A stretch of 64,000 bases of DNA from Lophium mytilinum (lineage: Eukaryota), in the NCBI GenBank assembly GCA_010093605.1, contig MU004186.1, forward strand, positions 1,530,616-1,594,615, in the 5' to 3' direction. The notes under the pieces were generated by a model, which saw only the letters and a program-made list of their open reading frames with translations, was not told the DNA's origin and did not search any database. Positions 15,833 through 61,736 of this stretch are shown one piece after another. The translations under genes and the position numbers were made by a program. How positions within the stretch are numbered: position 1 is the stretch's first letter; each line of letters opens with the position of its first letter.

Positions 15833-15842
15833 GCAGTAGGGA

Positions 15843-21087: not shown

Positions 21088-23007
21088 TTAGATCAGAGCT
21101 TGCCCCTTGAACATCCCCTCTCGCACTTCCTTCACCACGTCCGTCCGGTCCCCACGTCCGACGAGTACGATTCCGCGGCCTCTCCTGCCCATCCGTCCCG
21201 TGCGGCCGAGGCGGTGGATGAAGTCGATGGTTGTATGCGGGACATCGTACAAAATAACGTGCCTCACAGCTAGCGTATCGATACCCCTCGACCCCAAATC
21301 CGTTGTAACAATAACCTTCGTATTCAGCAGCCTCCTCCTCCGCTCCGCCAGCGTCGCCGCCTCAGCTCCCTGCCCCGGAAAGAAATTCGCCGTCTTCACG
21401 GCCGGCGCATCTAGCACCGTAGGCTCAGGGACCACCTCCTCGCCCTTGGCCAGGCCCTTGAACGAGGCGAGGATGCGGCCCGCGCGCTCGCCAGAGGTGT
21501 CGCGGTTAAGGGCGACGGCGTCGATGCCCTTGGTGACGAGGTAGTCAGCAACCTCGACGGCCTTCTCGCGCTCGTTGACGAAGACGATGATGCGCTTGAG
21601 GTCGACGTGCTCGGCAGCGCTGCCGTCGTCGGAGTGCTCGGCGGTGGTGCGGCCGATGGTCCAGATGGTGTCGGCGCAGGCGAGGTCTTTGTTGCCGCGG
21701 TAGGGCTCCTTGTTGACGTCGACCACGCCGAGCTGCACGCGGCGCGGGATAGCGTGCAGGTTGGGGGTGACGAGGCGCTTGATGTCTGGGAAGCGCTTTT
21801 CGAGAAAGGAGTCGAGGCGGCGGGGGATGGTGGCGGAGCAGAGGATTAGCTGGCGGAGGGAGGGGGTGGAGCGGTCGATGATGGCGGAGGTGGTGGGCGA
21901 GAAGGAGCGGTCCAGGAGGGAGTCGGCTTCGTCGATTACGAGATGTGTGACGCGGCTGAGGATGTTGGGGTTGCTTTCGGCGATGCTGCCGAGTAGGTGA
22001 GGCGTGCTGATGACTACGTCGACGCCGCTGGGGGAGAAGAGGCGACTGCGGATGACCGTTGCGGTGTTGGCGGCTGATATAGGGGCAGTTCTGAACTTAG
22101 CGACGTGAGATAAGGCCTTTGCGAGTTGGCCGACTTGCACCACGAGCTCTGCTGTAGGTACGAGGATTATAGCGCGGGGCCTTGCGCTGGTGGGGTGGGG
22201 ATCTGTTGATAGCGGAGGAGACTTCAGGCTAAACATATCGGTTCTCTTATTTGCCTGTGCTTCTGCGGCCTTTTCTGCTGCTGTTGCTTGTGCTTCTTCC
22301 TCTGCTTCGGTGACTTCCGCGCGCTTGATGGCATCAATGACGGGTAACAGATATGCCAACGTCTTTCCAGATCCAGTTTCCGCAGCCAACAAAAACTGTT
22401 CCATGCCCTTCTTTTCCACGGGGTTCCTCTTGCGACGGCGGTCGTCAACTCCTAGCAGTGCCGGGATTGCAACTCGCTGTGCAGGCGTAGGAGAAACATC
22501 TTCCAGACCAGGAAGGGCATCCGCGATGGCCTTCTTAAGAGAGGGGAGAAGCGGAAATTTGTCAAAGGTCTCTAGTTCGCTGATCTGGCTCTTGACGGCG
22601 GCTCGGTCGCCGTATGGCACGGGTGCCAGCGTCCGTTGCATCTTCAAGGCCTTGAAAGTTTCCGGTCTCGACCTCGACGACCCCCGCTCTCTTGCATTGT
22701 AGGCCTGCTTGTGTTCCAACTCGGTTCGTTTGCGCTGTGGAGGAGGCTGCACGCGTGCTTCTTTCTGGTTGAGATTGCCGAACGGGTCCAATGCTTTCTT
22801 CTTCGGTGGTTTGCTGTCTGTTAACGACCTAGGTGGATCTCGAGGGCGGCCGACATTGGGGGATAGTTCCATTCGAGAGGGTTTCCGCCTCTGAAGCTGG
22901 CCATAATGGCGCGATTGCTGCCAAGGGGCTTGTATGGACGACGGCTTGGTGTTGAAGATGGATCGAACTTCGCAAAAGAGACAGAGGCGGGACGTCGGGC
23001 GCAACAT
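21088..23007 (-). CDS. MRH4: Mitochondrial DEAD-box RNA helicase
   Basis: AAETGSGKTLAY, PTAEL, DEAD, SAT, SRGID, HRLGRTGRMGRRG; basic N-terminal presequence; single exon, 639 aa. Confidence 0.92.
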   Translation of the reverse strand: MLRPTSRLCLFCEVRSIFNTKPSSIQAPWQQSRHYGQLQRRKPSRMELSPNVGRPRDPPRSLTDSKPPKKKALDPFGNLNQKEARVQPPPQRKRTELEHKQAYNARERGSSRSRPETFKALKMQRTLAPVPYGDRAAVKSQISELETFDKFPLLPSLKKAIADALPGLEDVSPTPAQRVAIPALLGVDDRRRKRNPVEKKGMEQFLLAAETGSGKTLAYLLPVIDAIKRAEVTEAEEEAQATAAEKAAEAQANKRTDMFSLKSPPLSTDPHPTSARPRAIILVPTAELVVQVGQLAKALSHVAKFRTAPISAANTATVIRSRLFSPSGVDVVISTPHLLGSIAESNPNILSRVTHLVIDEADSLLDRSFSPTTSAIIDRSTPSLRQLILCSATIPRRLDSFLEKRFPDIKRLVTPNLHAIPRRVQLGVVDVNKEPYRGNKDLACADTIWTIGRTTAEHSDDGSAAEHVDLKRIIVFVNEREKAVEVADYLVTKGIDAVALNRDTSGERAGRILASFKGLAKGEEVVPEPTVLDAPAVKTANFFPGQGAEAATLAERRRRLLNTKVIVTTDLGSRGIDTLAVRHVILYDVPHTTIDFIHRLGRTGRMGRRGRGIVLVGRGDRTDVVKEVREGMFKGQALI

Positions 23008-23712
23008 TTGGGTATACTGCAGATCAAGAGGAGATGACTAGTTCATTAAAGACGCGTAGGAGTTTTGAAAGGTAGAGGAAAGAAGAAGAGAGTTTCGTGT
23101 AAATGAAGCAATACTCGTACAGCGTGAGGCGGCATGCTCAGAACTTTTTCGCGACAGGAGCGGTCTTCTACGGTAGACTAGTACCCGGCTGCAAGCGTGG
23201 CATGCCCGTTTGCCGTAGGATTCAGGCCGGGATTCTGCCCTGTTCTGTTCCCGCTGTCACGTGCTTTACCGTTGCTCCTCGCGACAACTAAAAATTCGGG
23301 CCGTGCACAGTATTATGGAACCTCGACTCAGCTAAGAGGTTGGCCCTCCCCTCCACCACAACCTCAGCATCTAGCTCCCACAGTTCACTTCTGCCCGTCG
23401 GCCTCTCCTCAATTTCCATACTCTCGCTTGAGACTTCATTGCATTCACTGCCATCATCATTGTGCAGTCGCATCACGGCGATCACTCCTTGACGGAGCGC
23501 GCGCATTCCAGCCGCATTCCATCCGTCGCCGCGGGCACCTTTGCGTCGCCAATTCCTACTCCAGCAGCTACTGCCCGAGTGAGATGCCTTCTGAAGGGGT
23601 AAGAGCCTACTCACGTCTTCTTCAGCGTATCGCATGTATATTAATTGTCCCCGTGCTCCAGGTCCCGCCTCTCCGTATAAACAAAACAACGCCATCCTCA
23701 TCGCCAGTCAAG

Positions 23713-26700
23713 ATGTCCAGCAGCGCCTCCCAGCGACCGCTGTCCGAGATCGGCTCGACGGAGCAGAGAAGAAACTCTCCTAGCTTCAATCAATCTACGA
23801 AGGTATTGCCGACCCGCATTCCTCCTCCTAATCCAGTCTAACCCGTCGCCAGAAACTCATGTTCAATCGAGACTCTTCTCCCTTCGACTCTTCGCCGTTC
23901 AACAACTCCCCGCGACTCTTTTGGAAAGAACGCGACCCAGCTTCCCCCGCCCGCTTCGGATCGGAGAACGAGTTTGAGCGCGACCAGTCCCTGTCGCCCA
24001 AGCGCTCCTCCATCGAGAACCTGAAGAAGGCGTCGCGCGTCAAGAACAGCAGCATGTTCGCTCGCGAACAGAAAAACGAATACGACCCCACTTCTACTCC
24101 AGTCGTCGAGCGCCCGCTTGCTGCCGGTCGCCCCCTCAGCGTGCAGGCCCAAGGTATCACATACGGCGGTCGCGGTCCCGAAGGGCTGCGGAAACCGAAC
24201 GAAGAGTTCAAAGGACATCGTAGAGGCGAGAGTTTGAGCAAGATTCCTCTCCTGCTGAGCCCAAACAACAAACCTCCTGCGCGACCTAACGGAGTCTCCC
24301 CATACAACTCAAACAGCGAGCTAGCGTCGCCGACAAAATCGTCCCTAGCCAGCAACGGCAGGTTCAGCGCTGTTGGCCAGACATACGACCCCGAGTCCAG
24401 CATCTGGTCCGACGACGAGGAGCAGCTCAAACACCAAACGCCGCGTCCCTTGCGCCGACATGCTAAAAGCGTAACCTTCGACGCCGCTCCACCAACAATC
24501 AACGAGTACGAGATGGTCACGCCTGATCCATCGTCGGTTGCTTCTGGGTCAGTACGAGAGGGGAGCTTCGACTCTGTTGAGGACTTTGATGATAGCTTCG
24601 ATCGCGGTTCCATGGACCATGATGACAGCTTTGACGCGTCCCTAGAGGATACCGACAAGACGCCAGTTGTGCTGCCGGAAGATTGGCGACACATGAGCCC
24701 TGAGCTCGCAAATACCTCTTTGGCAGACACATTTGATGATCCTTTCGATGGCAGGGAGGCTAGTCCCATGCCGACCGCACGCCCGAATGGTGTTGCAAAG
24801 TCGGAGAACCGCCAGGGTTCAACCAACTCGGAAGGTGAATCCAGGCCTCTGCCTCCTCTACCTGGGCTTCAAGGAGCGAACAGCCACCGTAGGAGAGACT
24901 CCAGCATTGGACTATCCACCGCGGCTGAGCGAGCGAGTGGCGCGCAGCGGTCTTTGCCGACCCCTCCACGCGCGGCTGGGGTGTCCAAGTCCGACATCCT
25001 CAACATGCGTGATACCTCCATGACGCTTGAGGACAGGCTTCGTCTGATGGGTCTCGAAGATCGCAACACTGATACTCCAACTCAAGAAAGCCACAATGAA
25101 TCCCAGCATTCAAAGTCGCCCCAGAAAGACCAGGGCCTGGGAATACAAGTCCATGTGGACGAAGTCGACGAGGTAGATGATTCCGAAATGGAGTCATTCC
25201 ACATCCCACGAATCTCACGGGAGTCCATTTTACGAAAAGTAAAGAGCCGTAACTTCGACGACTACGAGTGTGACTTCTCCATGGCGTCTAGTCCTGAGCG
25301 GAGCTACGGTGATCTTGCGGACCTCGATCCTGACGTTCCAATTCCTTCTCGAGAAGCCTCTTCAAACTTCGAAGTGGATGTTCCAGACGCGCCAGTCAAG
25401 ACCGAAAGCGATGCCGACAGCGTGGTTGACGCCTACTCCATGACTGAGATGTATAACCCCGAGCGGTCGGTTTCTCAAGTAGACGACTACGATCGTGAAG
25501 CTTCTGTCATACACCACAAGATGGAGCAGCAGCCTCAAGATGACGATGACGCTAGCCTGTACTCCCAGCAGCTGACTGAAGAAGGTGAAAAACCAGACAC
25601 AGTCACGGACTCAGATGGGCCTCCGACACCAAAGGCAGAACACCATACTGTGCCGCAAGCTGAAGCTACTACCACCAGTGACTTGCCTGACTTTGGCTCC
25701 TTCATGGGAGAGGACGATTTCAGGTTGAAATTCGACTCTTACATGGCGCCTTCCGTTCCCAAGGCTCCAGAATCAGCTCCTAGGGAGATCGCTCTTGAAG
25801 CCGCCTTAGAAGTCATACCATCATTCGAAGCACAGCCAGAGCTGGCGCCCCGCCCTTCCACGCCCGAAGATAAACTTCAGCTGCCGCAATTTGCAGGAGA
25901 AGACTCTGAGGACGAGCCAGGTACTCCAGATTCAGTTATCCGGCATCCAATGATTGATTCGCAAGAGCGCGATTCTCCTGTAGTCCCAGAGCCAGTTGCA
26001 ACTATCAAGGCACCTGGCGCAAAGCTCAAGACCCGCCCATCCCTTGTGCAATCCGATTTCAAGACTATGGCAGCTCAGCGTCGGCAAGTCAGTGGGGAGC
26101 GTGCACCACCGATTCCAGAGCGCAGTCCGAAGAGACATTCCATGAGTCTGGATCTTACCAATGGTGATGAAGACGATTCGGTTGAGGGGCATAGCGATGG
26201 ATCAAACAAGGAGAATCCACCACGCCGTCGCGAGAGCAACAGACTGAAGCTCGACATACCGTTTAGCGGAGCCTCGGACGATCTGAGTTTCGGCTTAGAC
26301 GAGGAGTTCGACCGCGTTATTGAGGCCCAGAAGGTAGACCTATTTCCCTTACCCTCTTACGCCCGATTCTCCACATCAGCTGCTGCAACATCTTTGGGTG
26401 ATGCAGGAGAGGAATTTATGTGTGGGGAGGGTTTCCTATACCAGTACAGTCCCACTAACGGATATGTACGCACACAGAAAGGGTACTTGATGAGACAAAA
26501 CACGAAGGTGGTGGTTGCGAGCAGCCGGCAGTTCAGCGATGAGCAGCCGCCAATGTCACCAACCGAGGCGTCTGGTCCAGGCGGCAGAGGTACACGATCG
26601 GCTGGAAGCAGTCCTCGCAAACCTAGCGCTGATCGGAAAGCCTGGACGACGGAGCCGTGGAACGGTAAGGTGAGGAGGAAGAGCATTCGTTCGACTTCTG

Positions 26701-28349
26701 GTAATGTACGCAAAGCTCCCAGTGGTCCAGCACCTCCACTGCCAGGTCAAGAGAGCAATGTCACTGGTGGACTGAGAACTCTTGTTGAAGATCAAACGAT
26801 GGTAGACGAGGATTCCGGAGAGGAGAAGGAGCGAGGGAGATTGTTTGTCAAGGTTATCGGAGTTAAAGACCTCGATCTACCCCTCCCAAGGAGTAAGTCT
26901 ATGTAAACCCGTCAGGATGGCTCAATGCTAACTACAATCAGCCGAGAAAACACGCTTCCAGCTCACCCTCGATAATGGATTGCACTGTGTGACCACGGCG
27001 TGGCTTGACCTTGGCCAGAACGCTCCCATAGGCCAGGAATTCGAGCTTACCGTCTACAAGGAGCTGGAATTCCAACTTACTCTCCAAACAAAGCTCGATG
27101 CACCACCGGAGCCTCTAATGCCTACAGTGTCTCCTACGAAGGTCATCAACCACAAGAAGTCTACCTCCGCTTTTAGCCGTCTCCTTTCTTCTCCCAAGAA
27201 GCGCAAAGAGCAAGAGCGCAAGCAGAACGAGGCAAACGAGCGTGCTGCCGATCTCAAACAAAAGGAAATGCAGTCTAAGCGCGGTAGTAAACAAGCTACC
27301 GCCTGGGATTTGCTGCACGACCTTGTGGGCACAGATGGCTCGTTTGCACGTGCATACGTCTGCCTCAACAATCATGAGAGCCAGGCTTTCGGCCGACCTT
27401 TGAATGTCGACATTCCATGCTTCAACGAGTGGGCTGTGGATCCCGGAGCTAGTGTCAAGAGCAAGCGTGGAGGAATGGTTCGACGCCCACCTTATCGCAT
27501 CGGCAAGCTTCAATTGCAACTTCTCTATGTTCCAAAGCCTGAGAATGCCAAGGACGATGATATGCCGAAGAGCATGAATGCTTGCATTCGCGACCTGAAA
27601 GAGGCAGAGGAGCTTAAGGCCACGAGCTGGGAAGGCCCTTTGAGTCAACAAGGTGGTGACTGTCCAGTAAGTGATCCATTGAATTCCTAGGTTTACCTGT
27701 TCTTGGAATTACAGCGTGCTAATGTTTGCTTTAGTACTGGCGCCGACGGTTCTTCCGCCTCTCCGGCACCAAACTAACCGCATACCACGAATCTACGCGA
27801 CAACCTCGTGCGACGATCAACCTTGCAAAAGCCAGCAAACTGATTGATGACCGGAGCTCCCTCACACAATCGTCACCCTCTAAGAGTGGAGGCCGACGCA
27901 AGTCCGCATTTGCTGAGGAAGAGGAAGGCTATATGTTCGTCGAGGAAGGCTTCCGAATCCGCTTTGCTAATGGCGAAGTCATCGACTTCTATGCCGACAG
28001 CGCTGCGCAAAAGGAAGGCTGGATGAAGGTCCTCTGCGAGACTGTTGGGAAGGACCTCGGCAGCTCCAAGGGTTGGACCGATCTCGTTCTCAGCAAGGAA
28101 CGACGCGACAAGAACGCAAAGAACCTCAAAGAGAATGCGCATGCCAGCGCTGGCCAACAGCGCCCTCGATCTCAACCCCAGCCACAAGAGCGAGCCAGCA
28201 GCAAAAGCGCTCCAACAAGTCCGCAAAAGTGGATGCACCGCGACTCTCAGCATCCACCTCCACCAGTCGAAAAGGACGTGCGCCACGCAGTCCCGCGAAT
28301 GAATCCGGTGAATCCGCGGCGCGATCAAGTGCGGTCTATGATGTATTAG
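23713..28349 (+). CDS. BUD4: Bud4/anillin-like septin-organising protein with C-terminal PH domain
   Basis: KRSSIENLKKASRVKNS, KSVTFDAAPP, RISRESILRK, GRLFVKVIGVKDL, LTLDNGLHCVTT, LSQQGGDCPYWRRRFF, EEGFRIRFANGEVIDFYAD. Introns 23803-23852, 26334-26477, 26893-26941, 27667-27734. Confidence 0.93.
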
Positions 28350-29132
28350 AGTCGTGCTTCTAATTTCTCTTCTTGAAAACACCGTCTTGTTTGGTTGCCA
28401 AAATGTCGCTGTGCGGCAAATGTTGGTTAGCTGAATGTATTGATTACCCCGTCTGGTTCTGTAGAGCCCGCACACTTGAAGCTGTACAGCTTTCTTTTCA
28501 TTTTCTCTTCCTCTTCTCTATTCTTTGTTTTGGTATTTGGTTGCTTCTGGCGTTGGAGGGGTGGGTGTAATGCCAGTTCTTTCACGAGGCCTCTGTGTAA
28601 TGACTATACTTGATGCAGAGGAAACCTCGGGTTGCGGAATATACAATACCTTCACAATATTCTTTCGTCCGTGTTCATTGCGTGATACTTTGTAGAATGC
28701 CTAGCCATCTCTAGGAGGTTTCTCTTCAAGTTTGTCTCGTTCACCCCGCTTGATGTGGTTCTGATTCTCATACAGGCTGGTGGAACGTCCGGACTCGAGC
28801 AAACACAAGGCAATCCTCAAGACGCAAACAGAGAGCCCCTTCCCGTCAACATTAGAATCGAGCTGAGTCGGAATTATGGCTTTGGAAAGTTTCCCTATCC
28901 CACTTTCTTTCTTCCTTTTCCCCGGGCAGGCTAAGCTTAAGAGTCTTCAACACAGTATGCTGATTTCATCAGGCAGGCAAGCAGAACTAGAAGCAACGCC
29001 ACTTGTTTTCCTTTGAATGATTGCAGGTTTCGTGTTTATACTTTCCCCTTAACTCATTATTTCTACCTCTCGTTTAATACCCTACATAATCCCCCTTCCC
29101 GACCACTTCCCCAAAGCCAACGCCAAAGCTAA

Positions 29133-30780
29133 ATGGGCAACACCCTCTCCAACCGCCCAGAGGTCCAAGTAGCAGGCCACTACCGCCCCGTCCTGACAAA
29201 CTGCCCCTGCTCCCCGCCCTCAAACCCAAGACTCCGCTCCCGCTCTCGCTCGCCCTCTCCTCGCGACTACCGCTCCCCTCGCTACCCCCCCGCCTACCCA
29301 CTACGCGGAGGAGGAGGGCCAATACACTACAGACCTCCCCCCGGCGCCGCCTACCGCAGTCCCCCTCCCACACCAGTCGCCTACCGCTCGAGCCCCCGAG
29401 GCGCCTACCCCATGGCATCACCACACGCCCCAGCGATGGCACCGCGCTACCCTCCTACAAACCCTTATACGCCACAGCCGTACATCCCGCCGCAACCACA
29501 CCCCCAGCGCCAGCCTCCCTATCAGCCTCCCTATCAGGCCCCTTATCAACCTCCCTATCAACCGCAATATCAACCTCCCAGACCCGCCGCTGCCCAACCC
29601 CAACCTCAACCCCAACCCCAGCTACCCCCGGCCCAGCGCGACTACGCCCACTTCCCCGGCGACCCCTTCCTCGACGCGTGCTTCTGCAAGACGGCGTGCC
29701 GGTGCCGCAAGGGGACGCGGGTGCTGTACCGCAGCCGGCGGGCGGACGGGACGATGGGGGAGGGGGAGATACGGTATGAGCTGAAGGAGGAGGTGGAGAG
29801 GGGGGTTGGGTGTGGGGGCAACGAACACGGGGATGGGGACGAGGGGCGGAGGAGGAAGGGGAGGGGGGAGGAGGGGGCGTGTAGGGAGCGGGTGAAGAAG
29901 AGTGAGCGGAAGGTGCTGGGGAGGATGGACGCGATGGAGAGGGGGAGGAGAAAGGATGTGGAGGAGTTGAGGAGGTTGGTAGGGAGGGGGATGGGAGGGG
30001 GTGGGGGGATGAGGGAGGGGTTTGAGAGGATGGGGGGTAGGGGGATGAGGGAGCAAACGTTTGGGATGGGTGGAGGAGGGGGGGATCGGTTTACGGGCGA
30101 GCCGTATGGGGAGATGGGGGGTGGTGGGGGGATCTATCCTGGAATGGCTGAGTACGGGGACCTTAGGTATCCGCCTGGTGAAGAGTCCATTCCGGAGCAT
30201 GAGTTCGGAGGGCAAGCTCAGCCCTTCCCAATGCGCGGTATGCCGCCGAGACACGGGCGTCCTCTACGAGGAGGACCGAGACAGAGCGGCTGGAATCCTG
30301 GGCGGGGAATGGACGATGAGGGCGGCCTCGAAACCGTAGATCCGCGAGGCGATTTTGGCAACAGAGGTCGAGGAGGTCCACGCGGCGGCCGGCCTCTACG
30401 AGGAAGAAGGGGTATGTCTGGGCGGGGCATGCGTCCTGGCCCACCTCTGGATGATAGCGAAGGTCCAGCGGGGAATGCGGGAGGCGAGGGGGAAGAGGCG
30501 TGGGAGGACGAAGATTGTAAGTGTCTTATTTCATATGATTTTCTCCCTGAGTATGTCTGACCGTAGAGTCCGTAGAGAGCATTATGATGTACGCGAGAGG
30601 CCTATGGCCAGGCCAGCGGAACCACAGCACCAAGAACAGCAACATAGACCCCCGCCCCAAGCTCGACGATCCAGCCGGATGGGTTCGGGGCAGAGCGGGG
30701 CTCAAAGAGGAGCGAGAGGTGCTAGGATGGACTCGGTACAGGATGAGGAGTACGGCGGTGGCCCGGATCGGACGGTGTAG
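29133..30780 (+). CDS. Hypothetical Pro-rich / Gly-Arg-rich protein with a central CxCxxxCxC motif; 3' end uncertain
   Basis: 475-codon ORF starting MGNTLS, with PYQ repeats and ACFCKTACRC. GTAAGT donor at 30517; splicing to the coding-like exon ending at 30780 needs a weak donor or acceptor, otherwise the CDS stops near 30568. Confidence 0.7.
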
Positions 30781-31391
30781 GAGTGATAGTAGAAATGTAA
30801 CAAGTTTGTAGACCTATGGATATGTTCTGGCCATAGGGCGAAATCTTGAATGACTTAAAACGATGCATGCACTCATTCAAAACAACATTCGTCTCCTTAC
30901 CTTATCAAGTATATCTCCAGGCCTGTGTAAGGGTAATGGTGATAAGCAGAACTCAAGCAATGAGAGCTTAGCACGCTTACGTAGGAGGTATTAGACATCC
31001 AACTAGTTATACTGTATTTTACGCTTTACTTAAAATGCGATACTCTTTGAGAATCATCTGTAAACGGTCACGTGCTGGCTGTCTTTAGCAGATGGGCATG
31101 CGCGTTCATTGTTACAATCTTTTCAACGTGAAGAGGCGAGTCCTGCCGATGCTGCTTCAGAGCCTGTCACTGTTCACGCATATTCCTTTTCATTGGATAC
31201 GAATGTTCGTGTCACAATGAGGTCGGCACTTATGAGGTGAGCTGGAGGGAGCAATCTCATCATAGGTTACACAGCATCGCTACCATGCATCAGCGCTGTA
31301 TGAGTGACGTGGACGCACCGCCTCCCAAATAAACCTGATATGTCCGTGAGACCTTTGCAAATTGAAGCGTGCTGGCCACATTACCGACAAT

Positions 31392-32195
31392 ATGAGCTCC
31401 TGTTGCGTACTCTGCGATCGAGATTTCAACAGCCACGAAGCTCTGCAGCAGCACAAACGAGACTCATCTGCACACAAGTTCGACTGTATAACATGCGATC
31501 GCCGTTTCAGAAGCGACACGGCTCTGGCACAGCACAAACGAGATGCCCCCGTTCATACTCAGTCCTTGGAACATCCAACCACTCTCGCGATGCCTCCTAG
31601 AAACCGGAAACCGACCAAGAAACAGAAGCTCAGCACAAAACCAGAGCCCAGAACAAACCCAGAGCCCAGAACAAACCCAGAGCCCAGCACAAAACCAGAG
31701 CCAAGCACAAAACCGAAGCCGATCACAAAACCGAAGCCGACCACAAAACCGAAGCCGACCAAGAATTGGTCGATATACCCCTCACTCCACAATGACGTCT
31801 CCAACCTCCTCGACGAAGACAACCTCTTCTTTAGCTTCTACGAGAAGGACGACGAGTACAGCTGTCTAGACTACTACGACACGAATATCATGGGTCAGTT
31901 TACTTGCAGCAATCCGGCATGCCCGGCTATCTGGACAAGCAAGCAAATAGCCATCACTATACGAGAATATTCCGACTCGCGATACAACGCAAGAGTGTAC
32001 TATCAATCGTGTAAGCGCTGTCAGACGACGAGTGAACCGCAACTGGATCATTCATACGCGGAAAGAGTGGCGTATCGGCTCAAAAAGTGGGCTGGGGTCC
32101 AGGTGGAACGCCCTCCCTACTCACAGCAGAGCAATGGCCCACATAGGAAGGATCTGTGTGAAGGGTGCAAGGAGGGTCATTGCAGCAACATGTAA
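31392..32195 (+). CDS. 3CxxC-type zinc-finger protein with two N-terminal C2H2 fingers and a K/P-rich repeat linker
   Basis: CVLCDRDFNSHEALQQHKRDSSAH and CITCDRRFRSDTALAQHKRDAPVH; then MGQFTC..C..WTSKQI, YNARVYYQSCKRC, PHRKDLCEGCKEGHC. Confidence 0.88.
   Translation: MSSCCVLCDRDFNSHEALQQHKRDSSAHKFDCITCDRRFRSDTALAQHKRDAPVHTQSLEHPTTLAMPPRNRKPTKKQKLSTKPEPRTNPEPRTNPEPSTKPEPSTKPKPITKPKPTTKPKPTKNWSIYPSLHNDVSNLLDEDNLFFSFYEKDDEYSCLDYYDTNIMGQFTCSNPACPAIWTSKQIAITIREYSDSRYNARVYYQSCKRCQTTSEPQLDHSYAERVAYRLKKWAGVQVERPPYSQQSNGPHRKDLCEGCKEGHCSNM
31632..31757 (+). repeat. Coding 18-bp tandem repeat, 7 copies (STKPEP/RTNPEP/TTKPKP)
   Basis: AGCACAAAACCAGAGCCC-like units in tandem inside the zinc-finger gene. 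Confidence 0.95.
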
Positions 32196-32369: not shown

Positions 32370-32461
32370 CAGCTAAGCTCCTCCTCTCCGCGGTGTCAAG
32401 TTCACACCACCGAAGCTGAACAGTGCTGAGCCCGTATGCCTAGACTTATAGCCCAGTACTG
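32370..32461 (+). mobile_element. Truncated right half of the mimp-like MITE
   Basis: CAGCTAAGCT..GGTGTCAAGT..AGCTGAA..CGTATGCCTAGACTTATAGCCCAGTACTG aligns with the right halves of the copies at 58060-58286 and 61068-61292; no left TIR seen. Confidence 0.8.
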
Positions 32462-32495
32462 TCCCTCAACACTAAACACCCATACATCCACAAAC

Positions 32496-34151
32496 CTAAT
32501 ACGACAACATTCTCTTCGACCCCACCCTCTTCAACGTCGCATTCGACCTCACCCTCTTCAATGCCGCATTCGACTTCACCTTCTTCAACACCACCGTCCC
32601 CCCAATCCCCAAGCTCCTCAACAAATCCCTAGCCCACTTCCCATCCTCGTCCACCTCCCCAACCGTCTCCCCCAGCAACGGCGACCGCGGAAGCGGTATC
32701 TCTGCGAGCACCGTGGCAGAGAGTGCTGGGCTCACGTTGGCGAGGTCGTGCGGCTCGCTGACATGCCGATGCCAGTCCGCTTCGGAGACCTCGTCGCCGC
32801 GCTCGAGGGCGGGGCGGATGGAGATGGGGGAGGGCTCGTTGGTGGGATGGTGAGCTGGTGTGAGATGGGTGGTGGAGTGTGTCGGGCGGACGTCTGAGAG
32901 GTCGGTTGGGGGGTGGATGCGCTGACGCCATTCTCGCATGGAGTCTTCTTCGTTGTGGTCAGGAGTGTTGTGGATGGAGAGGGGGTTTGAGGCTGTGAGG
33001 GCGTTTGGGTGGGGTACTGCGGCGGGAGGGAAGCGCGTCCACCAGGCTTCAGGAATAGGCGCAGGTTTGGGAGAGAGTTCTGGTAGGGTCGGGCGAGGGG
33101 GTGTGTGCGTCGAGGGCTGTGGAAGGGCGGAGTCTGGGGAGCAGTCTGGGTGTTCTTCTTTGATATACTGCTGCTGCTCCTGTGGCCGGCCGCAGTCAAT
33201 GGCCCCACGTCTATGGGAAGGACGGGTTTCGGTAGCATCGGTGTTGCGATCTGGTGCATGCGACTTCGAAGCCTTCGCTTTCATTTTCTTCACTCCCCCA
33301 CGAGACCCGTAGATCGCTGAGTTAGGATGCAGCATAAGTAGAGCCTTCTTCAGTACGGGGAACGCATCCTTTTGCTCTTCTTCGACCCTAGCGGGAACGG
33401 AAAAGCTGTCCAATTCTTCCTGGACAGTTGGAAGGTAGCTAAGAGGAGTGTCTGGACGCTCCATCAAGGTATGAGTAGGAGCCGCGGCCGATATTTCGTC
33501 ATCGGGACCCGGACTGAATCTTCCACTTGGAATGGTGATTGATAGACCTGGGCGGGCTCGAGCCCTCACAGAGTCGACTTGAGATCCTTGCCTAGACTCA
33601 ACAGTCTTCCGCGAGGGAGAGAGGCTGGTCACGGGTTCGTTGACGGCGGCGCCGGTTTCCCAGTGCGGGTCGTGGATGTCTGTTCTGCCTGATCGCCATA
33701 TCTTCTTCTTGTGAACTGATTTGTTCTTCTCTGCTGGCAATTTTACAGGTCTGGCTGGCGCATCCGTGCCGTCGCTGTCTTCAGTAGGTTTGGCACACGA
33801 GAATCGGTCAAGCCGTGAAGCTTTGGCGAGGATCCGCCTAACAATACTCGTCTCGTCCTCGGAGTAGGCTTGGGGATCAGCGTGGGCTTGCGGATCAGAG
33901 TGGGTTTGTGGACTCCTGTCTATGCTGCTGTACCGGTTGCCTTTGGGGATGTTGTTACGCAGAGCATAGGAAGGCTGTGTCCGTTCCAGCTTGGCGATGT
34001 GGGCAGCAGCCTCTTTGCTAGGCCTTGGGATGTTGGGCAGAGATAGCTGCTCTCTGGCCTGGTCTGCTTTCTGAGGACTAGAGGCTCTGTACAGGCCTCC
34101 AACGGCTGCGCTAGATGGCATCTTCTTCGAACTCGAATGAGGGATGGGCAT
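32496..34151 (-). CDS. Hypothetical disordered Ser/Pro-rich protein
   Basis: ~550-codon uninterrupted ORF, first ATG at 34151 (MPIPHSS); no domain recognised. Confidence 0.7.
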   Translation of the reverse strand: MPIPHSSSKKMPSSAAVGGLYRASSPQKADQAREQLSLPNIPRPSKEAAAHIAKLERTQPSYALRNNIPKGNRYSSIDRSPQTHSDPQAHADPQAYSEDETSIVRRILAKASRLDRFSCAKPTEDSDGTDAPARPVKLPAEKNKSVHKKKIWRSGRTDIHDPHWETGAAVNEPVTSLSPSRKTVESRQGSQVDSVRARARPGLSITIPSGRFSPGPDDEISAAAPTHTLMERPDTPLSYLPTVQEELDSFSVPARVEEEQKDAFPVLKKALLMLHPNSAIYGSRGGVKKMKAKASKSHAPDRNTDATETRPSHRRGAIDCGRPQEQQQYIKEEHPDCSPDSALPQPSTHTPPRPTLPELSPKPAPIPEAWWTRFPPAAVPHPNALTASNPLSIHNTPDHNEEDSMREWRQRIHPPTDLSDVRPTHSTTHLTPAHHPTNEPSPISIRPALERGDEVSEADWHRHVSEPHDLANVSPALSATVLAEIPLPRSPLLGETVGEVDEDGKWARDLLRSLGIGGTVVLKKVKSNAALKRVRSNATLKRVGSKRMLSY

Positions 34152-35087
34152 ATTGAATGACACAGGATAGATATGAAATGTTGAAAATTATGGCAGCGTG
34201 GATATGTAGCTGTTTGAGAAGAAAAAAGGACAGGTAGGGCTCGAGAACTGGCTTCTTCCACCTTGAAAATGCGAGTGCGTGTCCTAGATGCCATGAGTTT
34301 CGTGGTTGAGATGTTGTGAACCATGTTTTGCGGCTCATGTACCTAATCATAGTTTAAGGTCTATGAAGCCTCTCAGTATATGGCTGAGTCGAGAACAGGA
34401 TCAAAATTGCGGCCGAGATTACTAGCGGAGTACCGTGGGGTCTTGTGGATCGAGGCCCCGACGCCTAGCATCCTAGCTAATATATTTCATCTCGTGGCGG
34501 TAGAACCGTGGTTCGGTTCGTGTAGACTATGTGTAGGACCCCAGTTATGGGAGGAATACAGTCAACCTCAGGTCATAGGAGGCCAGCTCCATGCCGCATA
34601 GTAAGATATTAAAGAAAGACACGCGAGTGTTCGACTTCGCGAATGAGTAACTTCTTTGGCGAGCATTCGCGAATGGTAATTGGAGTTGGTCGTGGAATAT
34701 GAACCATGGAAATGAACCTGAGTGGGCCCTTCAGTGGCCCGAGCACAGATGTAGGAGCTCGGCGTAGTAAATAGACTGCGCAAATCTCCACGGATTAATA
34801 CCACGTGCGCGGAGACAGATTTCAAACTTTAAGCAGCTGGACTGCAAACTAGGAGTTCTTTTATCTTGAATTATTTACCATAATTCGCAGTCGGAATTCA
34901 AAGCCCAACACCCGAACGCCGTATTCAGTGCGAGAGAATCGTAATCCAAAACACATGCCCGCTTCATAAGCCTTCACCAGTCGTCGTTCTCGGCAGCCCG
35001 ACGCTGGTGTATAGATCCGAAAAATAGCGAAATAGTTCGCAACCGGAGAGCAATCGGCTCGAATCGCTCATGCACTATTATTGCCTG

Positions 35088-41115: not shown

Positions 41116-41367
41116 ATGCCTCTGCGCGTTCTCCCGAGGTGGGTTACCACTGTTTGAGGTGCGTCAATATATTTTCGAAAACTGAGATTCGATGTAAGGT
41201 TTGTGGCCCTCGGATCTATACGAACTACGCGATGCCTTTGATGCGCATTCTCCCGTGGGGTGTTACCACTGTTTGAGGTGCTCCAACTTACTTTCGATAA
41301 CATAGATCCGATGTAAGGTTTGTGACCCTCGAATCTGGACGAATCATGCGATGCGTTTGCTCGTTCG
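41116..41367. repeat. Diverged tandem duplication, 119-bp period, ~2 copies
   Basis: TTACCACTGTTTGAGGTGC at 41144 and 41263; CGATGTAAGGTTTGTG.CCCTCG in both units. Confidence 0.92.
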
Positions 41368-56680: not shown

Positions 56681-56996
56681 CAACTTCGTGGGGCGTTATA
56701 AGATGACGCCGGCTTAGAAATCTCGAGAGTGAGGGCGGTGGGGGGTGTAGGTAGGGCCGCTGTTCCTCATTTGTATATTATGAGCCGCAAAAGCCAATGT
56801 AATTTTTGGCCATGCTAAAAACGAAGGAGGGCCCAGATAGGTGTTTTCAATTCGAGTATATTCTTTCTCATGGTCTTGGTAAGTTTGTCATCGTGCCATG
56901 TGTGATGAAGGTGAAGATAAACGTTGAAGCTTGTGGAATTAGGTGACCGAAACCTGGTATTACTATGCCCTTTGGCCCTTCCGCGTGTACCCTCAT

Positions 56997-57089
56997 TTAC
57001 TCCCATTACTCTCATTACTCCCATTACTCCCATTACTCCCATTACTCCTATTACTCCCATTACTCCCATTACTCCCATTACTCCCATTA
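56997..57089. repeat. 9-bp minisatellite (TTACTCCCA), ~10 copies
   Basis: Direct reading; two units carry single C>T changes. Confidence 0.97.
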
Positions 57090-58059
57090 ACGCCCTAACG
57101 CCTCCTTTCCCTAATCTAAATATACTTATTCACTCTCCTTTGAATAGCTACATCACCCACACCTCAACCTACCCCGAAGTCGGGGTTTCAACACCACCAT
57201 TCCTCGCAAACCAACAGGGTTTTGCTGGCGCAATTCGTACCCTGCGGAAAAGCTGAAGGTCGCTCGCAGACACGGGCCCTTCTATCATCAACTGGGCTAT
57301 CTATTAATGGTCCATTGAGATGACGTCTAGGGCCAAAGACGTCGTATTGAAAATGTGAAGCACGTGTACCGCGCTAGATGGAAGGTGGGTGTTACGAGGG
57401 AGATTAAAGTAGCCACCACGTCTACGGACGTTGCTTGGCTGGACGCGATGTGGCAATGGCTTTTGGTGTGAATGCAATGTTAATGATACGGGAACGGAGT
57501 GGGACGTTGTTGGAGCGGAGGTGGAGGTGGGGATGATTTGGCTAATCAGAGTGTTAGATACAAATGAGGTATATAGCGTGGAAATTGAACCATGTAGACG
57601 TAGAGGGGAATACACGTGCAGCGAGGAGGGGTGAATGCAGAGTGAATGAGCCTGTAAGTTACCAGGCCACGTAGATTCAAGCGTTTATCGCATACCCAGA
57701 TGAGCGTTCAGAATATTTCAATGTTGGATCGGAAGTCTCTGCATACCTGTATTGTCTTGCCATAGGTATCCGCACACTTTTGAACCAACATCTTTGGGGC
57801 TCCAACGTATCTACAAAACATGAAGGGAGCAGATACGCTTCCAATCTGTGTGCACCCTGCTAACGATGTCTAGGACATCCTCGCAAGTATACTAGTTTTC
57901 CTAAAAGTCAAACTCTTCTCTTATTTAGAACGCTAAAAATACTATGAATCTCCTTGCGCAGCGGTAAACGAGTGTACAGGTTTATATGAAGAGACCTGGT
58001 ATCAACGTCCGGTGCCCAAGGCTCATTATCGGTCTAAGGAAATTAATGAACAGCTCTTA

Positions 58060-58286
58060 CAGTTACAGGCCAAAAGTCTGGGCACACTACTTTGCCACTG
58101 CTTGGGGTACCCCGATAAGGTTACAAACCTCTGGCCATGAAGTTAAGTTCTGGGTAGTGCAAACCAGACTACCTCTTGACTGCCTAGCTATCGAGCAGCC
58201 AAGCTACCCCTCACAGTGGTGTCAAGTGAGCAAAGTGGAGCTGAAGGGTGTTTGTTTCGTGTGCCTAGACTTATGGCCTAGTACTG
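58060..58286 (+). mobile_element. mimp-like Tc1/mariner MITE, 227 bp, 28-bp TIRs, flanked by TA on both sides
   Basis: TA|CAGTTACAGGCCAAAAGTCTGGGCACAC ... GTGTGCCTAGACTTATGGCCTAGTACTG|TA (23/28 TIR match); homologous to 61068-61292. Confidence 0.88.
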
Positions 58287-58387
58287 TAGGCCCTCAGGGG
58301 CTCAGCTTCCCGCGCCGTGGTGGAGGAGTAGCTCTACAATCTCTTGATTTTTTTGCTTTGTTGCTAGTGATAAAGCCGTATTGCCTT

Positions 58388-61300
58388 CTAGTCCTCTGAG
58401 TTTGAGTCGACGTCGTCCCGCTCAAGCAGCAATCTCACCACTTCCGTCTGCATCCAATGTATCGCCTCCATGAGCGGTGTTTTGCCATTGAATTTCTTCA
58501 CGTCTGCCTTAATCTCATTCCGTTGAAGTAGTACGTTCGTCACTGGCGCATGTCCTTCCGTCGCTGCGTGATGTAATGCCGTGTTGCCATCTCCATCTTG
58601 CAAATTGATGTCTACGTCCTCCCGCTGTAGTAGAAGCTTTGTCACTAGCTCATATCCTCGCTTTGCTGCGTGATGTAATGCCGTGTTGCCGTCTCTATCT
58701 TGCAAGTTGATGTCTACGTCGTCCCGCTTGAGGAGCAGTCTCGCCGATAACTCATAGCCATACTTTGCTGTCCCAAGAAGTGGCGTGCCGCCCCTATTGT
58801 TACGTATATTGACTTTGGTCTCGGTCCGCTGAAGTAGCAGCTTCATCGTTGGTTCGAGTCCTCGATACGCTGCCAAATGTAATGCAGTGTCACCGCGTTG
58901 ATCTTGATGATTGATGTCTACGTCATCCCGCTCGAGAAGTAGCCTTGCTATCCCCTCATGACCATTATCGACTGCGATCGAAAGTGCTGACGGGCGCATG
59001 CCAGCTTCTACGTTAACGTCAATGTCGTCCCGCGCAAGGAGAAGCTCTAGTATTCCATCATGCCCGTTTTGTGCTGCTAAGAATAGCGGCGTGTTTGCGT
59101 TCCTATTTGGGTTATTAACTTCAATGCCACTTCTCTTGAGTAGCAGCTTCACGACTGGCTCATGCCCGTTATCTACAGCTAGACAAAGTGGAATTGCTAG
59201 ACAAAGTGGAATTCGCCATAGTGTTCCCGACCACAGCGGACCCTTATCGCCTCTGTATCCCGAGTTGAGGTCGACATCGTCTCGCTCTAGTAAGAGATTG
59301 ACTATCGCCTCATGTCCTGATTGTGCAGCTCGCGACAGTGGAGAATAGCCCCAATCGTCTCGAATATCGGCGAAGCTTTCGTCATCAGTGTCTGATATTT
59401 GCAGCAGTAGCCTTGTCAGATGAAGTAGTCCCAGCCGTGCTGTGAGATGCAGGCCAACAGACCCGGCCGGGTATTCTGGCCCCGAATCACCAATTTGGTA
59501 TTCTTCCGGATCGTGGTAAAGGACCTGAAGGAGACATGCGATCAAATTGGCGTCCCGAAGTACGGTTAACGCTAGCTCGGACACCTCTTCTTGCATTGTG
59601 GATGCGTGATTGCCCCAGTAGCGAGCAGCGTAATGAAGGAGCGGATTTATCCGAAGTCTTGTACGGAAGTCAATATACCCTGCACAATCCCCGCTCTTGA
59701 AAGTGTCGAAGCAAAGATAGGTCAGGCAGATAGAGGTGATGTCCTCTTGCGCTTTAGGAATCCAACGTTGCCGTATGCGCTCGAAGTATTCTTGCGTAGT
59801 GTAATGCACCAGGCGCACGTTATCACTGTCGTAATCGAAAGTAACGAGGCCAGCACAGACTGAGACCAGGTCTTCGATATCCGGGATGTTGTCCGGATCG
59901 AGTTCTTTATCACCTGGCTCCACCGCTAATGCATGGCATAGCTCACGCGCTGTGAGCTGTCTCTCCGCATAGATGATCCAGGAGAGTACAGCCCTTGCCG
60001 ACTCGCGATCCCCGGATTGCTGTCGTTCGATTCTGTCAATCGCTGCGTCGTACGCCTCGTTTAGTGCGGAAAATCCTTTTTGGAAGGTGTTAAGCGCAGT
60101 CTGTAATTTCTTCTTGGTGTTTTTATCCAATAGAGAGTCGAAATGGAGACGAGCGAGAAGGAACCTGGGACACTCGTAAGCTAAAGTCAAGATAACAATT
60201 CGAATACTAACATCCCATCTACAGCTTCAGCAATCTTCTCCTGCACTAATACCTGCAACCCACTGTCTCGCTGGACGTATCCGGGAAGCTCATCCATACG
60301 GCCTTTGACAAATCGCTTCACGTCTGCTGCGCTCGCTCGCACTTCCAGCGTCGGCGTCGACTCAAATTCCTTTACAATTTCTGGGATGAAGCGCGAGGTA
60401 CCCATCAGATGGAGATTTGATTTCGACTGTAAATCACGAAGCGTACTTATAAGCTTGCGTGTCGTGCCCTCTTTGTCCGAGCACTCATCAAGCGCATCAA
60501 CGACCAAGTATACTGTCGAGAAGTCATTGAGCACGATTTGCAGGGTATCAGTAATCTCATTCAACGATGGTCTAGTCTTTTCGTGGCGATGGATTTCGTA
60601 TAAACTTGCTATAGCCTGAGGCGTGGACGACTGAGCTTGACCTAGCTGCTTGAGGATGGCAGCAAGGAAGTAACTGACTGACTGTTCTGTCTGCGCCTTA
60701 TAGTTGCAAAACAGATAAGCCACAGCAACGTTTTGGGTTTGAGAAGCTCGCAAGTACTCGATTGTGATTGCGGACATCATCGTCTTTCCGGCCCCAGGTA
60801 TGCCGGGGCAGAATAGGGTTTTGTTCGAGCCGTGAACCCATTCAGAGAATTCATTCGCTGCAAGGAACCATAGACCCGTGTCCTCTTGCTTCCTAGCGAT
60901 GAAGTCGGACTGCTGCAGTGGAAAGTTGGTTGGAGATAGCCAATCCAGTATTTCGTCGTGCCGTTGACGATGCTGATCTTGCTCAAGCGCTGCCACGCCC
61001 TTGTGGGTAGCTTTCGAGAGTTCACTGTAAGCGTTAGTATGTAGACCTATGAATTCAGGCCGTCATATAGTGACAAGCCACAAGTCTGGGCACACTGGTA
61101 CGCCACTGCTTGGGGCCCCCGCATGGTTTCGAGGACTCAAGAGCGATGTCAAGCTTCAAACAGTGCAGATTAGACTGCCTCTTGACTAATTGCCTGCTCA
61201 GCAGCTAGGCTACCCCCAACAGTGGTATAGAGTGAGCAAACTGGAGATTAACTGGATTCAGTCCGTATGCCCAGACTTATGGCCTAGTACTGTATATTGA

Positions 61301-61736
61301 CGACCTGTCATCAGACAACTTACAAATGGTCCAGCTGTAGCGCATTCTGCACTAGCGTTTTCAAGCGCTCTATCCTCATCATGGTCTCTTTGACCTCTTT
61401 TTTGACAAACTTCCACTGGAGAGAGTGAAGAACGTCCTTCAAACCTTTCCCCTTCTGCACCTTGGCCTGTAAATCCTCGAGAGCGAGCTTGTACTGATCG
61501 AGCGGGCCATTGTGGACGCCAAGTTCCCGAACGGAGGCATACCAAGGCTCGTTAGAACTAGTCTCTGTACATCGATACCTTAACTGAGTGAGGAGGGAAG
61601 AAAGATTCGATGCTTCGATAGCCCATTGATCGCGGTCTTTTGGAGCGTCTTTCACGTCGTCTAGATAGCTGATCAGCTTACTAGTGAGCTGCAGCACGGC
61701 GATGATGCTGGCGGCCACACTGAGGGGATCTGCCAT
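58388..61736 (-). CDS. Fungal NLR: SesA/HeLo-like N-terminal domain + NACHT NTPase + ankyrin repeats; last repeat frameshifted (former stop at 58302)
   Basis: MADPLSVAASIIAVLQL N-terminus, Walker A GIPGAGKT, Walker B LVVDALDEC, GMFLLARLH, VRLVHYTTQEYF, roughly 9-10 ankyrin repeats. Exons 61736-61324, 61024-60212, 60164-58388. Confidence 0.93.
61068..61292 (+). mobile_element. mimp-like MITE copy, 225 bp, inside NLR intron 1
   Basis: TA|TAGTGACAAGCCACAAGTCTGGGCACAC ... GTATGCCCAGACTTATGGCCTAGTACTG|TA; internal blocks GCCACTGCTTGGGG, CCTCTTGACT, GCTACCCC, AGTGAGCAAA shared with the 58060 copy. Confidence 0.88.

What the first reader, a model, noticed from the sequence alone, without database searches (positions are those of the whole stretch)
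58058..61294. Two MITE copies bracket exactly the NACHT+ankyrin module of an NLR
Seen: one copy is in intron 1, which separates the N-terminal effector exon from NACHT (299-nt intron, ~72 nt without the element). The other ends ~15 bp from the former stop codon. Both are in the same orientation with TA flanks. Known: fungal NLRs combine effector, NOD and repeat domains combinatorially. Inference: the outer TIRs define a 3.2-kb composite unit, and the copies could support transposition or recombination that moves the sensor module behind other effector exons. The copies are diverged, so two independent insertions are also plausible.
Basis: partly seen in the sequence, partly recalled or inferred. 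Interest (0 to 1): 0.72.

Follow-up and report, generated by a model that had tools for sequence, protein, structure and literature searches.

The report
Two MITE insertions flanking a fungal NLR
Two old copies of a very abundant small transposon sit in an intron and just past the end of an otherwise ordinary fungal immune-receptor-like gene, and nothing indicates that they have moved or will move the part of the gene between them.

Summary
Two copies of one MITE family (A 58060-58286, B 61068-61292) lie in the same orientation, each between TA dinucleotides. B sits in the 299-nt intron 1 of a minus-strand NLR, which would be 72 nt without it. A ends 13 nt from an ancestral stop codon that a frameshift has put out of frame; the present stop is 99 nt away.

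The composite-unit idea finds no support.
- The family is high-copy in the source sample, about 20x to 190x single-copy depth. Other close pairs exist elsewhere, and chance alone predicts about 1 to 11 pairs within 3.2 kb.
- A and B are only 70% identical and belong to different subfamilies.
- The NACHT-ankyrin segment is single-copy.
- 20 of 29 NACHT-bearing homologues carry the exon-1 domain in the same order. Exon-1 and NACHT trees share their clades.
- The same phase-2 intron, about 43-62 nt and without an element, is present in 7 of 7 homologous loci inspected.

Enrichment at NLR loci and variation between strains could not be tested: no genome is held and only the source sample's runs were found. 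Best reading: two independent insertions into tolerated non-coding TA sites.

The parts
58060..58286 (+). MITE copy A, 227 nt. Its ends read CAGT...ACTG. TA lies at 58058-59 and 58287-88. It sits in the 3' flank of the NLR, 13 nt past the ancestral stop and 99 nt past the present stop.
   Evidence: (I2, D4, D5). Other genomic copies lose similarity at 58058 (table 7).
61068..61292 (+). MITE copy B, 225 nt, inside intron 1. TA lies at 61066-67 and 61293-94. Its 5' end reads TAGT where copy A has CAGT; its 3' end ACTG is intact.
   Evidence: (I3). Other copies lose similarity at 61069 and 61294 (table 7).
32370..32462 (+). Third, partial copy: the 3' 93 nt of the same family, 73% identical to A. 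It lies between two non-NLR ORFs, about 35 nt from the end of the minus-strand ORF 32499-34187.
   Evidence: D7; neighbouring ORFs.
61324..61736 (-). NLR exon 1: 137 codons plus 2 nt, starting at ATG 61736. The N-terminal domain is probably of the PigL_N / HeLo-like kind.
   Evidence: ORF. PF17111 at E 0.033, below the cut-off. Atlas lead, score 0.97; collinear with the N-termini of 20 homologues.
61025..61323 (-). Intron 1, 299 nt, phase 2, with GTAAGT, TACTAAC and CAG signals. It is 72 nt without copy B and one TA.
   Evidence: The exon junction gives a protein contiguous with P0018 and P0024. The same intron is present in homologous loci.
60212..61024 (-). NLR exon 2: linker plus the NACHT (NPHP3_N) NTPase domain, with the Walker A motif GIPGAGKT.
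   Evidence: PF24883, E 1.1e-36; translation.
60165..60211 (-). Intron 2, 47 nt, with GTTAGT donor and CAG acceptor.
   Evidence: Read. The junction restores the ...DGMFLLARL... sequence, contiguous with homologues.
58388..60164 (-). NLR exon 3: winged-helix domain, linker and ankyrin repeats, ending at the present stop TAG (58390-58388).
   Evidence: PF22939, E 2.9e-8; Ank, E 9e-56, 8 stretches.
58302..58385 (-). Out-of-frame relic of the last ankyrin repeat plus the ancestral stop TGA (58304-58302). A one-base frame change near 58386-58392 cut it off.
   Evidence: tblastn alignments to ankyrin repeats of P0092, P0087, P0119 and P0114, E 1e-8 to 2e-6.

Best explanation
These are two separate, old insertions of a high-copy, TA-targeting MITE of the Tc1/mariner kind. 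Both landed in non-coding TA sites of a single-copy fungal NLR gene with an ancient architecture: a PigL_N-like N-terminal domain, NACHT, a winged helix and ankyrin repeats.

Copy B landed in an intron that this gene family has carried since long before the insertion, at the boundary between the N-terminal domain and the NACHT linker. Copy A landed in the 3' untranslated region, just past the then stop codon.

Insertions into coding sequence would be selected against, so introns and flanks are the only places in a gene where such elements persist. That, together with the old intron sitting at a domain boundary, produces the look of an 'exact bracket'. The gene still reads as an intact 1000-codon frame with canonical splice signals.

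Shown: the anatomy, the copy abundance, the ancestral gene structure and the single-copy state of the module. Inferred: the independence of the two insertions and the absence of any function for the pair.
For: (1) The family is abundant in the source sample.
- 521 and 559 contigs of the two runs lie on the 4-kb stretch at 80% likeness or more.
- Summed depth is about 3500-3900 over A and 17000-31700 over B, against about 155-172 for unique sequence.
- At 58058, 61069 and 61294, 11-26 contigs run on into unlike, mutually discordant flanks (agreement 0.38-0.43).

(2) Close pairs occur elsewhere. Contigs join the end of one copy to the start of another with only 10 or 28 letters between (tables 5 and 5c). 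With 100-400 copies in about 45 Mb, uniform placement alone gives 0.7-11 pairs within 3.2 kb.

(3) A and B differ at 30% of positions. They recruit very different depths at the 80% threshold, so they come from different subfamilies. At the listed variant sites, each also differs from most of its own relatives (table 3).

(4) A third, partial copy lies between non-NLR genes, again close to an ORF end.

(5) The architecture is ancestral. Of 29 NACHT-bearing homologues, 20 carry the exon-1 domain collinearly at 42-64% identity. Identity ranks correlate and the trees share their clades.

(6) The phase-2 intron is present at the same place, about 43-62 nt long and without an element, in 7 of 7 PigL_N-type loci read by eye. 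A script confirmed 3 of these and gave phase-2 candidates in 3 more.

(7) Between the copies, depth is flat at the single-copy level (table 2).
Against: - Two of the three copies in this 64-kb window sit at its single NLR gene. Local density (3 in 64 kb) is well above the rough genome mean, so some targeting of this locus or of NLRs cannot be excluded.
- The outer termini of the pair are intact (CAGT and ACTG) and match as well as each copy's own pair (23/30 against 24/30 and 22/30). The inner 5' end of B is altered. The pair is therefore structurally fit to act as one unit.
- The copy-number figures are summed contig depths, which the tool itself warns are not copy numbers.
- All reads come from one sample, probably the one the window was assembled from.
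- The homologous loci are distant relatives, not orthologues.
- TA target duplications cannot tell one composite insertion from two single ones.
Confidence: 0.85

Rival explanations
1. Composite (macro-)transposon. A Tc1/mariner transposase uses the outer termini of A and B and moves the 3.2-kb unit. The unit carries the intron 3' part with its branch point and acceptor, the NACHT-ANK exons and the stop. Landing in an intron of another gene would create a new NLR chimaera.
For: - The outer termini are intact and inverted, matching at 23/30 (I2). B's inner 5' end is altered from CAGT to TAGT.
- The unit starts inside an intron upstream of a TACTAAC branch point and ends 13 nt past the ancestral stop.
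- Relatives of this module do carry other N-termini: HET in P0102 and PNP_UDP in L009, L042 and L044.
Against: - No second copy of the module exists at 80% likeness or more in the source sample.
- Exon 1 and NACHT are congruent, and the intron predates the element. This locus is therefore not a product of such a move.
- The PNP_UDP-type relatives have a phase-1 junction intron, not phase 2 (by eye). The swaps seen are not simple exchanges at this intron.
- Both copies are old and diverged.
- No autonomous partner is known.
- From general knowledge (recalled): transposition by this superfamily falls steeply with element length.
Confidence: 0.04
2. Recombination substrate. The two direct repeats mediate deletion of the NACHT-ANK segment, leaving a solo hybrid element, or ectopic exchange with other copies, so that the locus turns over.
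For: The two copies are in direct orientation 3 kb apart. The family has many dispersed partners.
Against: - Identity is only 70% and the longest perfect run is 22 nt. From general knowledge (recalled), this is poor substrate for homologous recombination.
- The joints between A and B have short sides (21-40 letters) and either unrelated letters between them or an unknown content there. They are other family members aligning partly to A and partly to B.
- No listed contig links the 57.7-kb flank to the 61.3-kb flank. The same sample cannot show other alleles in any case.
Confidence: 0.04
3. Cis-regulation. The elements in the intron and the 3' UTR form hairpins in the pre-mRNA, or draw small RNAs or chromatin marks, and so tune expression of a potentially dangerous cell-death receptor.
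For: Both copies lie inside the predicted transcript and have inverted termini. From abstracts and listings seen: MITEs near genes affect expression in plants, and mimp elements mark effector promoters in Fusarium (PMC3599309).
Against: No RNA data exist: 0 RNA runs were found. There is no known RNA family in the region. Nothing sets this gene apart from the many other places where the family sits.
Confidence: 0.07

Closest known systems
Tc1/mariner-derived MITEs of fungi, for example mimp / impala of Fusarium oxysporum (PMC3599309 and PMC5579170; search listing and abstracts only)
   Same: Short (about 225 nt) non-coding elements with about 30-nt terminal inverted repeats and TA flanks. High copy number and location close to genes.
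   Different: There is no sequence relation to a named family. The pattern search of metagenome contigs found nothing and the 80 homologous loci hold no copy. No autonomous partner is identified. The resemblance of the CAGT terminus to Tc1-type ends is recalled, not tested. Association with a gene class is shown for mimp and not shown here.
Fungal NLRs of NACHT-ANK architecture with a HeLo-like/PigL_N N-terminus (Dyrka et al. 2014, PMC4986451; PMC12258605; listing and abstracts, and for the second also passages)
   Same: Three-part architecture. A NACHT of the NPHP3_N type, a winged helix and C-terminal ankyrin repeats. Family members carry alternative N-termini.
   Different: Nothing unusual in the protein, except a frameshift that removes the last ankyrin repeat and an 18-bp in-frame tandem duplication.
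Association of transposable elements with a subset of fungal NLR genes in the Podospora species complex (PMC13449251; passages seen)
   Same: TEs lie in the flanks of NLR genes. The authors suggest TEs may be involved in moving these genes.
   Different: That result concerns NLRs with highly conserved internal repeats and TE content in 2-kb flanks. Here the ankyrin repeats are only 70-78% alike at the DNA level (D2), and the elements are two small MITEs. No movement is shown.
Macrotransposition by pairs of cut-and-paste elements, such as Ac/Ds pairs in maize (recalled; no paper read)
   Same: Two nearby elements whose outer ends could be used together.
   Different: No evidence that it happened here. 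A different superfamily.

Membership tests
MITE of the Tc1/mariner (TA-target) kind | Terminal inverted repeats | tested here: met
   The 30-nt ends match at 24/30 (A) and 22/30 (B) (I2 and I3).
MITE of the Tc1/mariner (TA-target) kind | TA target-site duplication | tested here: met
   TA lies on both sides of A and B. Alignments of 11 and 18-19 other contigs run through the TA at 58058 and 61294 before the flanks diverge (table 7).
MITE of the Tc1/mariner (TA-target) kind | Short, non-coding and multi-copy, with shared defined ends and unrelated flanks | tested here: met
   The elements are 225-227 nt. Depth is about 20x to 190x the single-copy level, and 521 and 559 contigs were laid. Loose ends have low flank agreement. 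The depth ratio is only a rough guide to copy number.
MITE of the Tc1/mariner (TA-target) kind | An autonomous element with matching termini that encodes a DDE transposase | not testable with these tools
   No genome is held. None of the 33 long window ORFs scanned matched a transposase family.
Fungal NLR (NACHT-ANK) | NACHT-type NTPase with a Walker A motif | tested here: met
   PF24883 NPHP3_N at E 1.1e-36. GIPGAGKT is present in the translation.
Fungal NLR (NACHT-ANK) | C-terminal superstructure-forming repeats | tested here: met
   Ank at E 9e-56 in 8 stretches; Ank_2 at E 1e-57.
Fungal NLR (NACHT-ANK) | N-terminal effector domain of a named family (PF17111 PigL_N, formerly Helo_like_N) | tested here: inconclusive
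   E 0.033 and 14 bits against a cut-off of 27.2. Atlas clusters score 0.97, with PF17111 on 14-27% of members. Distant relative L040 passes the cut-off at 37.2 bits.
Composite transposon / macrotransposon carrying the NACHT-ANK module | Outer ends of the pair intact and in inverted orientation | tested here: met
   23/30 match, with CAGT and ACTG termini.
Composite transposon / macrotransposon carrying the NACHT-ANK module | The unit is found at a second site, or its cargo has a history different from the flanking exon | tested here: not met
   The cargo is at single-copy depth. Exon-1 and NACHT identities and trees are congruent. Limits: only one sample was available and there are no close orthologues.
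Composite transposon / macrotransposon carrying the NACHT-ANK module | An empty site or excision footprint for the whole unit in another individual | not testable with these tools
   Only two runs of one sample hold the stretch.

The most novel reading that the evidence does not exclude
The pair is a latent 'exon-trap cassette'. The outer termini are intact while one inner terminus is damaged, so a transposase would favour the outer ends. It would then move a unit made of branch point, acceptor, NACHT-ANK coding sequence and stop. Inserted into a phase-2 intron of another gene, the unit would build a new NLR in one step. MITE pairs would then be a general engine of the combinatorial N-terminus / NOD-repeat assortments of fungal NLRs.
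Probability: 0.03. Interest if true: 0.75.

Novelty: new member of a known kind. Interest (0 to 1): 0.17.

Why it matters
If the bracket were functional, it would offer a concrete mechanism for the long-noted domain shuffling of fungal NLRs. As it stands, it is a tidy example of how an abundant TA-targeting MITE ends up in the few tolerated non-coding sites of a gene. It also shows how an old intron at a domain boundary can make two chance insertions look designed.

Useful by-products:
- A defined new MITE family, with exact ends.
- A corrected three-exon gene model for the NLR.
- Recognition of a C-terminal frameshift in the NLR.
- The observation that the junction intron is conserved across PigL_N-type NACHT-ANK genes.

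Tried and rejected
- **Whole genome.** The proposed genome-wide enrichment test was therefore not possible.
- **Earlier notes of this scan.** There were none for this genome, for the MITE sequence or for the key words.
- **MITE pattern search.** A 27-nt degenerate pattern found 0 matches in metagenome contigs. No further copies with flanks could be collected.
- **Sequencing runs.** Only two runs of one sample and one study hold the stretch, and none is RNA. Strain comparison and expression could not be addressed.
- **Joints between A and B in the laid contigs.** Examples are 58113 to 61139 and 58233 to 61143. I considered them as possible deletion alleles and rejected them. They have short sides of 21-40 letters and either unrelated letters between them or an unknown content there. 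They fit other family members aligning half to A and half to B.
- **Displaced exons.** I searched for exons or NLR remnants elsewhere in the window, with the gene masked. Only chance-level hits came up (best E 0.007), apart from the out-of-frame last ankyrin repeat.
- **Rfam.** The scan of 57800-61500 gave only one sub-threshold chance hit, 21.8 bits against a gathering score of 70.
- **RIP as the cause of divergence.** Not indicated: 45 transitions against 25 transversions.
- **Literature.** The first search was swamped by house-dust-mite papers. One search failed on syntax and was re-sent. No paper in the listings describes MITE pairs bracketing NLR modules in fungi. These four searches do not prove that none exists.
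Full report
**1. What is there**

The stretch 58058-61294 is bounded by two copies of one short repeat.
- blastn of copy A against the whole window finds copy B at E = 5e-26. It also finds a third, partial copy at 32370-32462 at E = 4e-9.
- A 14-mer from the terminal repeat occurs 5 times in the window against 0.46 expected, and 0 of 100 shuffles reach 5.

Read to the base:
- Copy A is 58060-58286 (227 nt).
- Copy B is 61068-61292 (225 nt).
- Both are in the same orientation, and each lies between TA dinucleotides.
- The 30-nt ends are inverted repeats, matching at 24/30 in A and 22/30 in B.
- The outer pair (A's left end with B's right end) matches at 23/30. The inner pair matches at 21/30.
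- A's ends read CAGT...ACTG. B's left end reads TAGT.
- A and B are identical at 161 of 231 aligned positions (70%), with 45 transitions and 25 transversions. The longest identical run is 22 nt.

**2. The gene**

A three-exon gene lies on the minus strand.

| Part | Coordinates | Notes |
|---|---|---|
| Exon 1 | 61736-61324 | 137 codons plus 2 nt |
| Intron 1 | 61323-61025 | 299 nt; GTAAGT, TACTAAC branch point, CAG |
| Exon 2 | 61024-60212 | NPHP3_N/NACHT, E 1e-36; Walker A GIPGAGKT |
| Intron 2 | 60211-60165 | 47 nt |
| Exon 3 | 60164-58388 | winged helix E 3e-8; ankyrin E 9e-56, 8 stretches |

- Both junctions give a protein contiguous with full-length homologues. For example, P0018 aligns to exon 1 at residues 2-136, to exon 2 at 138-408 and to exon 3 from 410.
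- The product is 1000 residues.
- Exon 1 has only a sub-threshold match to PF17111 (PigL_N, E 0.033). A language-model look-up points to the same family (score 0.97). It is probably a HeLo-like / PigL_N N-terminal domain.
- Copy B lies wholly inside intron 1.

**3. The 'former stop codon'**

Ankyrin repeats of homologues match it at E 1e-8 to 6e-6 in a small database. It ends in TGA at 58304-58302, 13 nt from A's TA.

The independent Logan contigs of the source sample show the same letters there: contig 58259-61098 has 0 differences. They come from the same sample.

**4. How common is the element?**

No whole genome is held. Only two runs, of one sample and one study, hold the stretch. I laid their contigs on 57700-61700 at 80% likeness or more.
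- 521 and 559 contigs lie on the stretch.
- Unique parts have summed depth of 155-172.
- The bins over A have 1987-3936 in run X1.
- The bins over B have 17061-31716 in run X1.
- This is about 12-24x the single-copy level for A and 100-190x for B. The tool warns that such sums are not copy numbers, so I read this only as 'tens to hundreds of copies'.
- The A-like subfamily is much smaller than the B-like one.
- At 58058, 61069 and 61294, 11 to 26 contigs run on into unlike sequence with low mutual agreement (0.38-0.43). This is what many insertions at different sites look like, and it confirms the element's ends.
- Some contigs join the end of one copy to the start of another with only 10 or 28 letters between. 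Close pairs therefore exist elsewhere.
- Between the copies the depth is flat at the single-copy level, apart from a slight rise over two ankyrin bins. The NACHT-ANK segment has no second copy at 80% or more.

With 100-400 copies in about 45 Mb, uniform placement alone predicts 0.7-11 pairs within 3.2 kb.

**5. Is the gene's architecture recent or old?**

The best protein relatives are only 50-60% identical, so no orthologue is available. Of the 120 listed hits, 29 include the NACHT exon.
- 20 of the 29 carry the exon-1 domain at their N-terminus, collinear, at 42-64% identity.
- 7 of the other 9 are models that start within the first 24 residues of the NACHT-exon alignment.
- One (P0102) has a HET domain instead, at E 1e-11.
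- One (P0076) has a weak SesA-like N-terminus, at E 0.015.

I then compared the 18 homologues with a full exon-1 match, dropping P0021 and P0042, whose matches were partial.
- Identity to the query in exon 1 correlates with identity in exon 2 (rho 0.66) and in the winged-helix part (rho 0.71). Exon 2 against the winged-helix part gives 0.61.
- Quick maximum-likelihood trees of exon 1 (135 columns) and of NACHT plus winged helix (560 columns) recover the same groups: P0018+P0024; P0047+P0058+P0081; P0050+P0065; P0006+P0106+P0038+P0068+P0026; and P0044+P0071.
- Both trees give the query the same five nearest rows. The query's own placement is not strongly supported in either tree.

There is no sign that the module was recently put behind this first exon.

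**6. The intron is older than the element**

A profile search of metagenome contigs returned 80 loci with relatives of the NACHT exon. Of these, 16 had an exon-1 match.
- By eye, L001, L002, L003, L021 and L029 show a GT..AG intron at the same codon position and phase (phase 2, just before the conserved x-L-S-x-A-I-K stretch).
- The same is true of two further PigL_N-type loci found by Pfam, L005 and L040.
- These introns are about 43-62 nt long and hold no element. That makes 7 of 7 inspected.
- A script run on the 16 loci gave canonical phase-2 solutions for L001 (48 nt), L003 (43 nt) and L021 (51 nt).
- It gave phase-2 candidates for L013, L057 and L060, and an uninterrupted frame in L014, L035 and L036.
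- It gave no clean solution for the other 7, two of which (L002, L029) were resolved by eye.
- Relatives with a PNP_UDP N-terminus (L009, L042, L044) also have an intron at the junction, but in phase 1 (by eye).
- None of the 80 loci (388 kb) holds this MITE.

**7. Reading**

The simplest account is two unrelated insertions of an abundant TA-targeting MITE into non-coding TA sites of an old, single-copy NLR gene. The 'exact bracket' follows from two things. An old intron happens to sit at the domain boundary, and only introns and flanks tolerate insertions.

The third copy in the window lies between non-NLR genes, and it too lies about 35 nt from an ORF end.

What speaks the other way:
- Two of three copies in 64 kb are at the only NLR.
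- The outer ends are intact while one inner end is altered, so the pair could in principle act as a unit.
- The homologous loci are distant, and all reads come from one sample.

I put 0.85 on independent insertions without a role in module mobility. I put a few percent each on composite transposition, recombination and cis-regulation.

**8. Known context**

- TA-flanked MITEs derived from Tc1/mariner elements are known in fungi, for example mimp/impala (PMC3599309, PMC5579170; abstracts only).
- Combinatorial NLR architectures are known (PMC4986451, abstract; PMC12258605, passages).
- In Podospora, a subset of NLRs is more associated with TEs. The authors suggest TEs may help to move them (PMC13449251; passages).
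- I found no report of MITE pairs bracketing an NLR module in the listings. That is not proof that none exists.

**9. Verdict**

The mobility inference is unsupported, and two of its own three refutation criteria are met as far as they can be tested. The element is a new member of a known kind. Interest is low.

Noticed in passing
window 58302-58392 (minus strand): A frame change of one base just at the present stop codon cuts off a complete last ankyrin repeat. That repeat is still readable one frame off and ends at an older TGA. The rest of the 1000-codon frame is intact, so the truncation is recent or tolerated.
   Followed up: yes
window 59178-59213: An exact 18-bp tandem duplication (two copies, 100% identical) lies inside an ankyrin repeat. 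It duplicates six residues in frame (IPLCLA twice). The two depth bins that start there are slightly raised in the laid contigs.
   Followed up: partly
window 15515-15839: A second MITE-like element of another family, 325 bp long, with 33-nt terminal inverted repeats 91% complementary. It begins with TACAGT and lies between the Rxt3-like gene and the next ORF.
   Followed up: no
window 56970-57121: A tandem array of a 9-nt unit (about 12 copies of TTACTCCCA) in the spacer between the convergent Rgp1-like gene and the NLR.
   Followed up: no
window 31609-31770: An 18-nt tandem repeat (7 copies, 61-100% identical) inside the ORF 31350-32192, which carries zinc-finger and 3CxxC zinc-ribbon domains.
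   Followed up: no
window 41123-41359: Two tandem copies of a 118-nt unit, 82% identical, in a stretch without a Pfam match.
   Followed up: no
loci L009, L042, L044 versus L001-L003, L005, L021, L029, L040: In relatives of this NACHT-ANK family, an intron sits at the boundary between the N-terminal domain and the NACHT linker in both PigL_N-type genes (phase 2) and PNP_UDP-type genes (phase 1). Introns at this domain boundary may be a general feature worth a systematic look.
   Followed up: partly
protein P0102 (homologue, 958 aa): It carries a HET domain in front of a NACHT-ANK part that is as close to the query (53-55% identity) as in homologues with the PigL_N-type N-terminus. This is an example of an N-terminal swap within this family.
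   Followed up: partly
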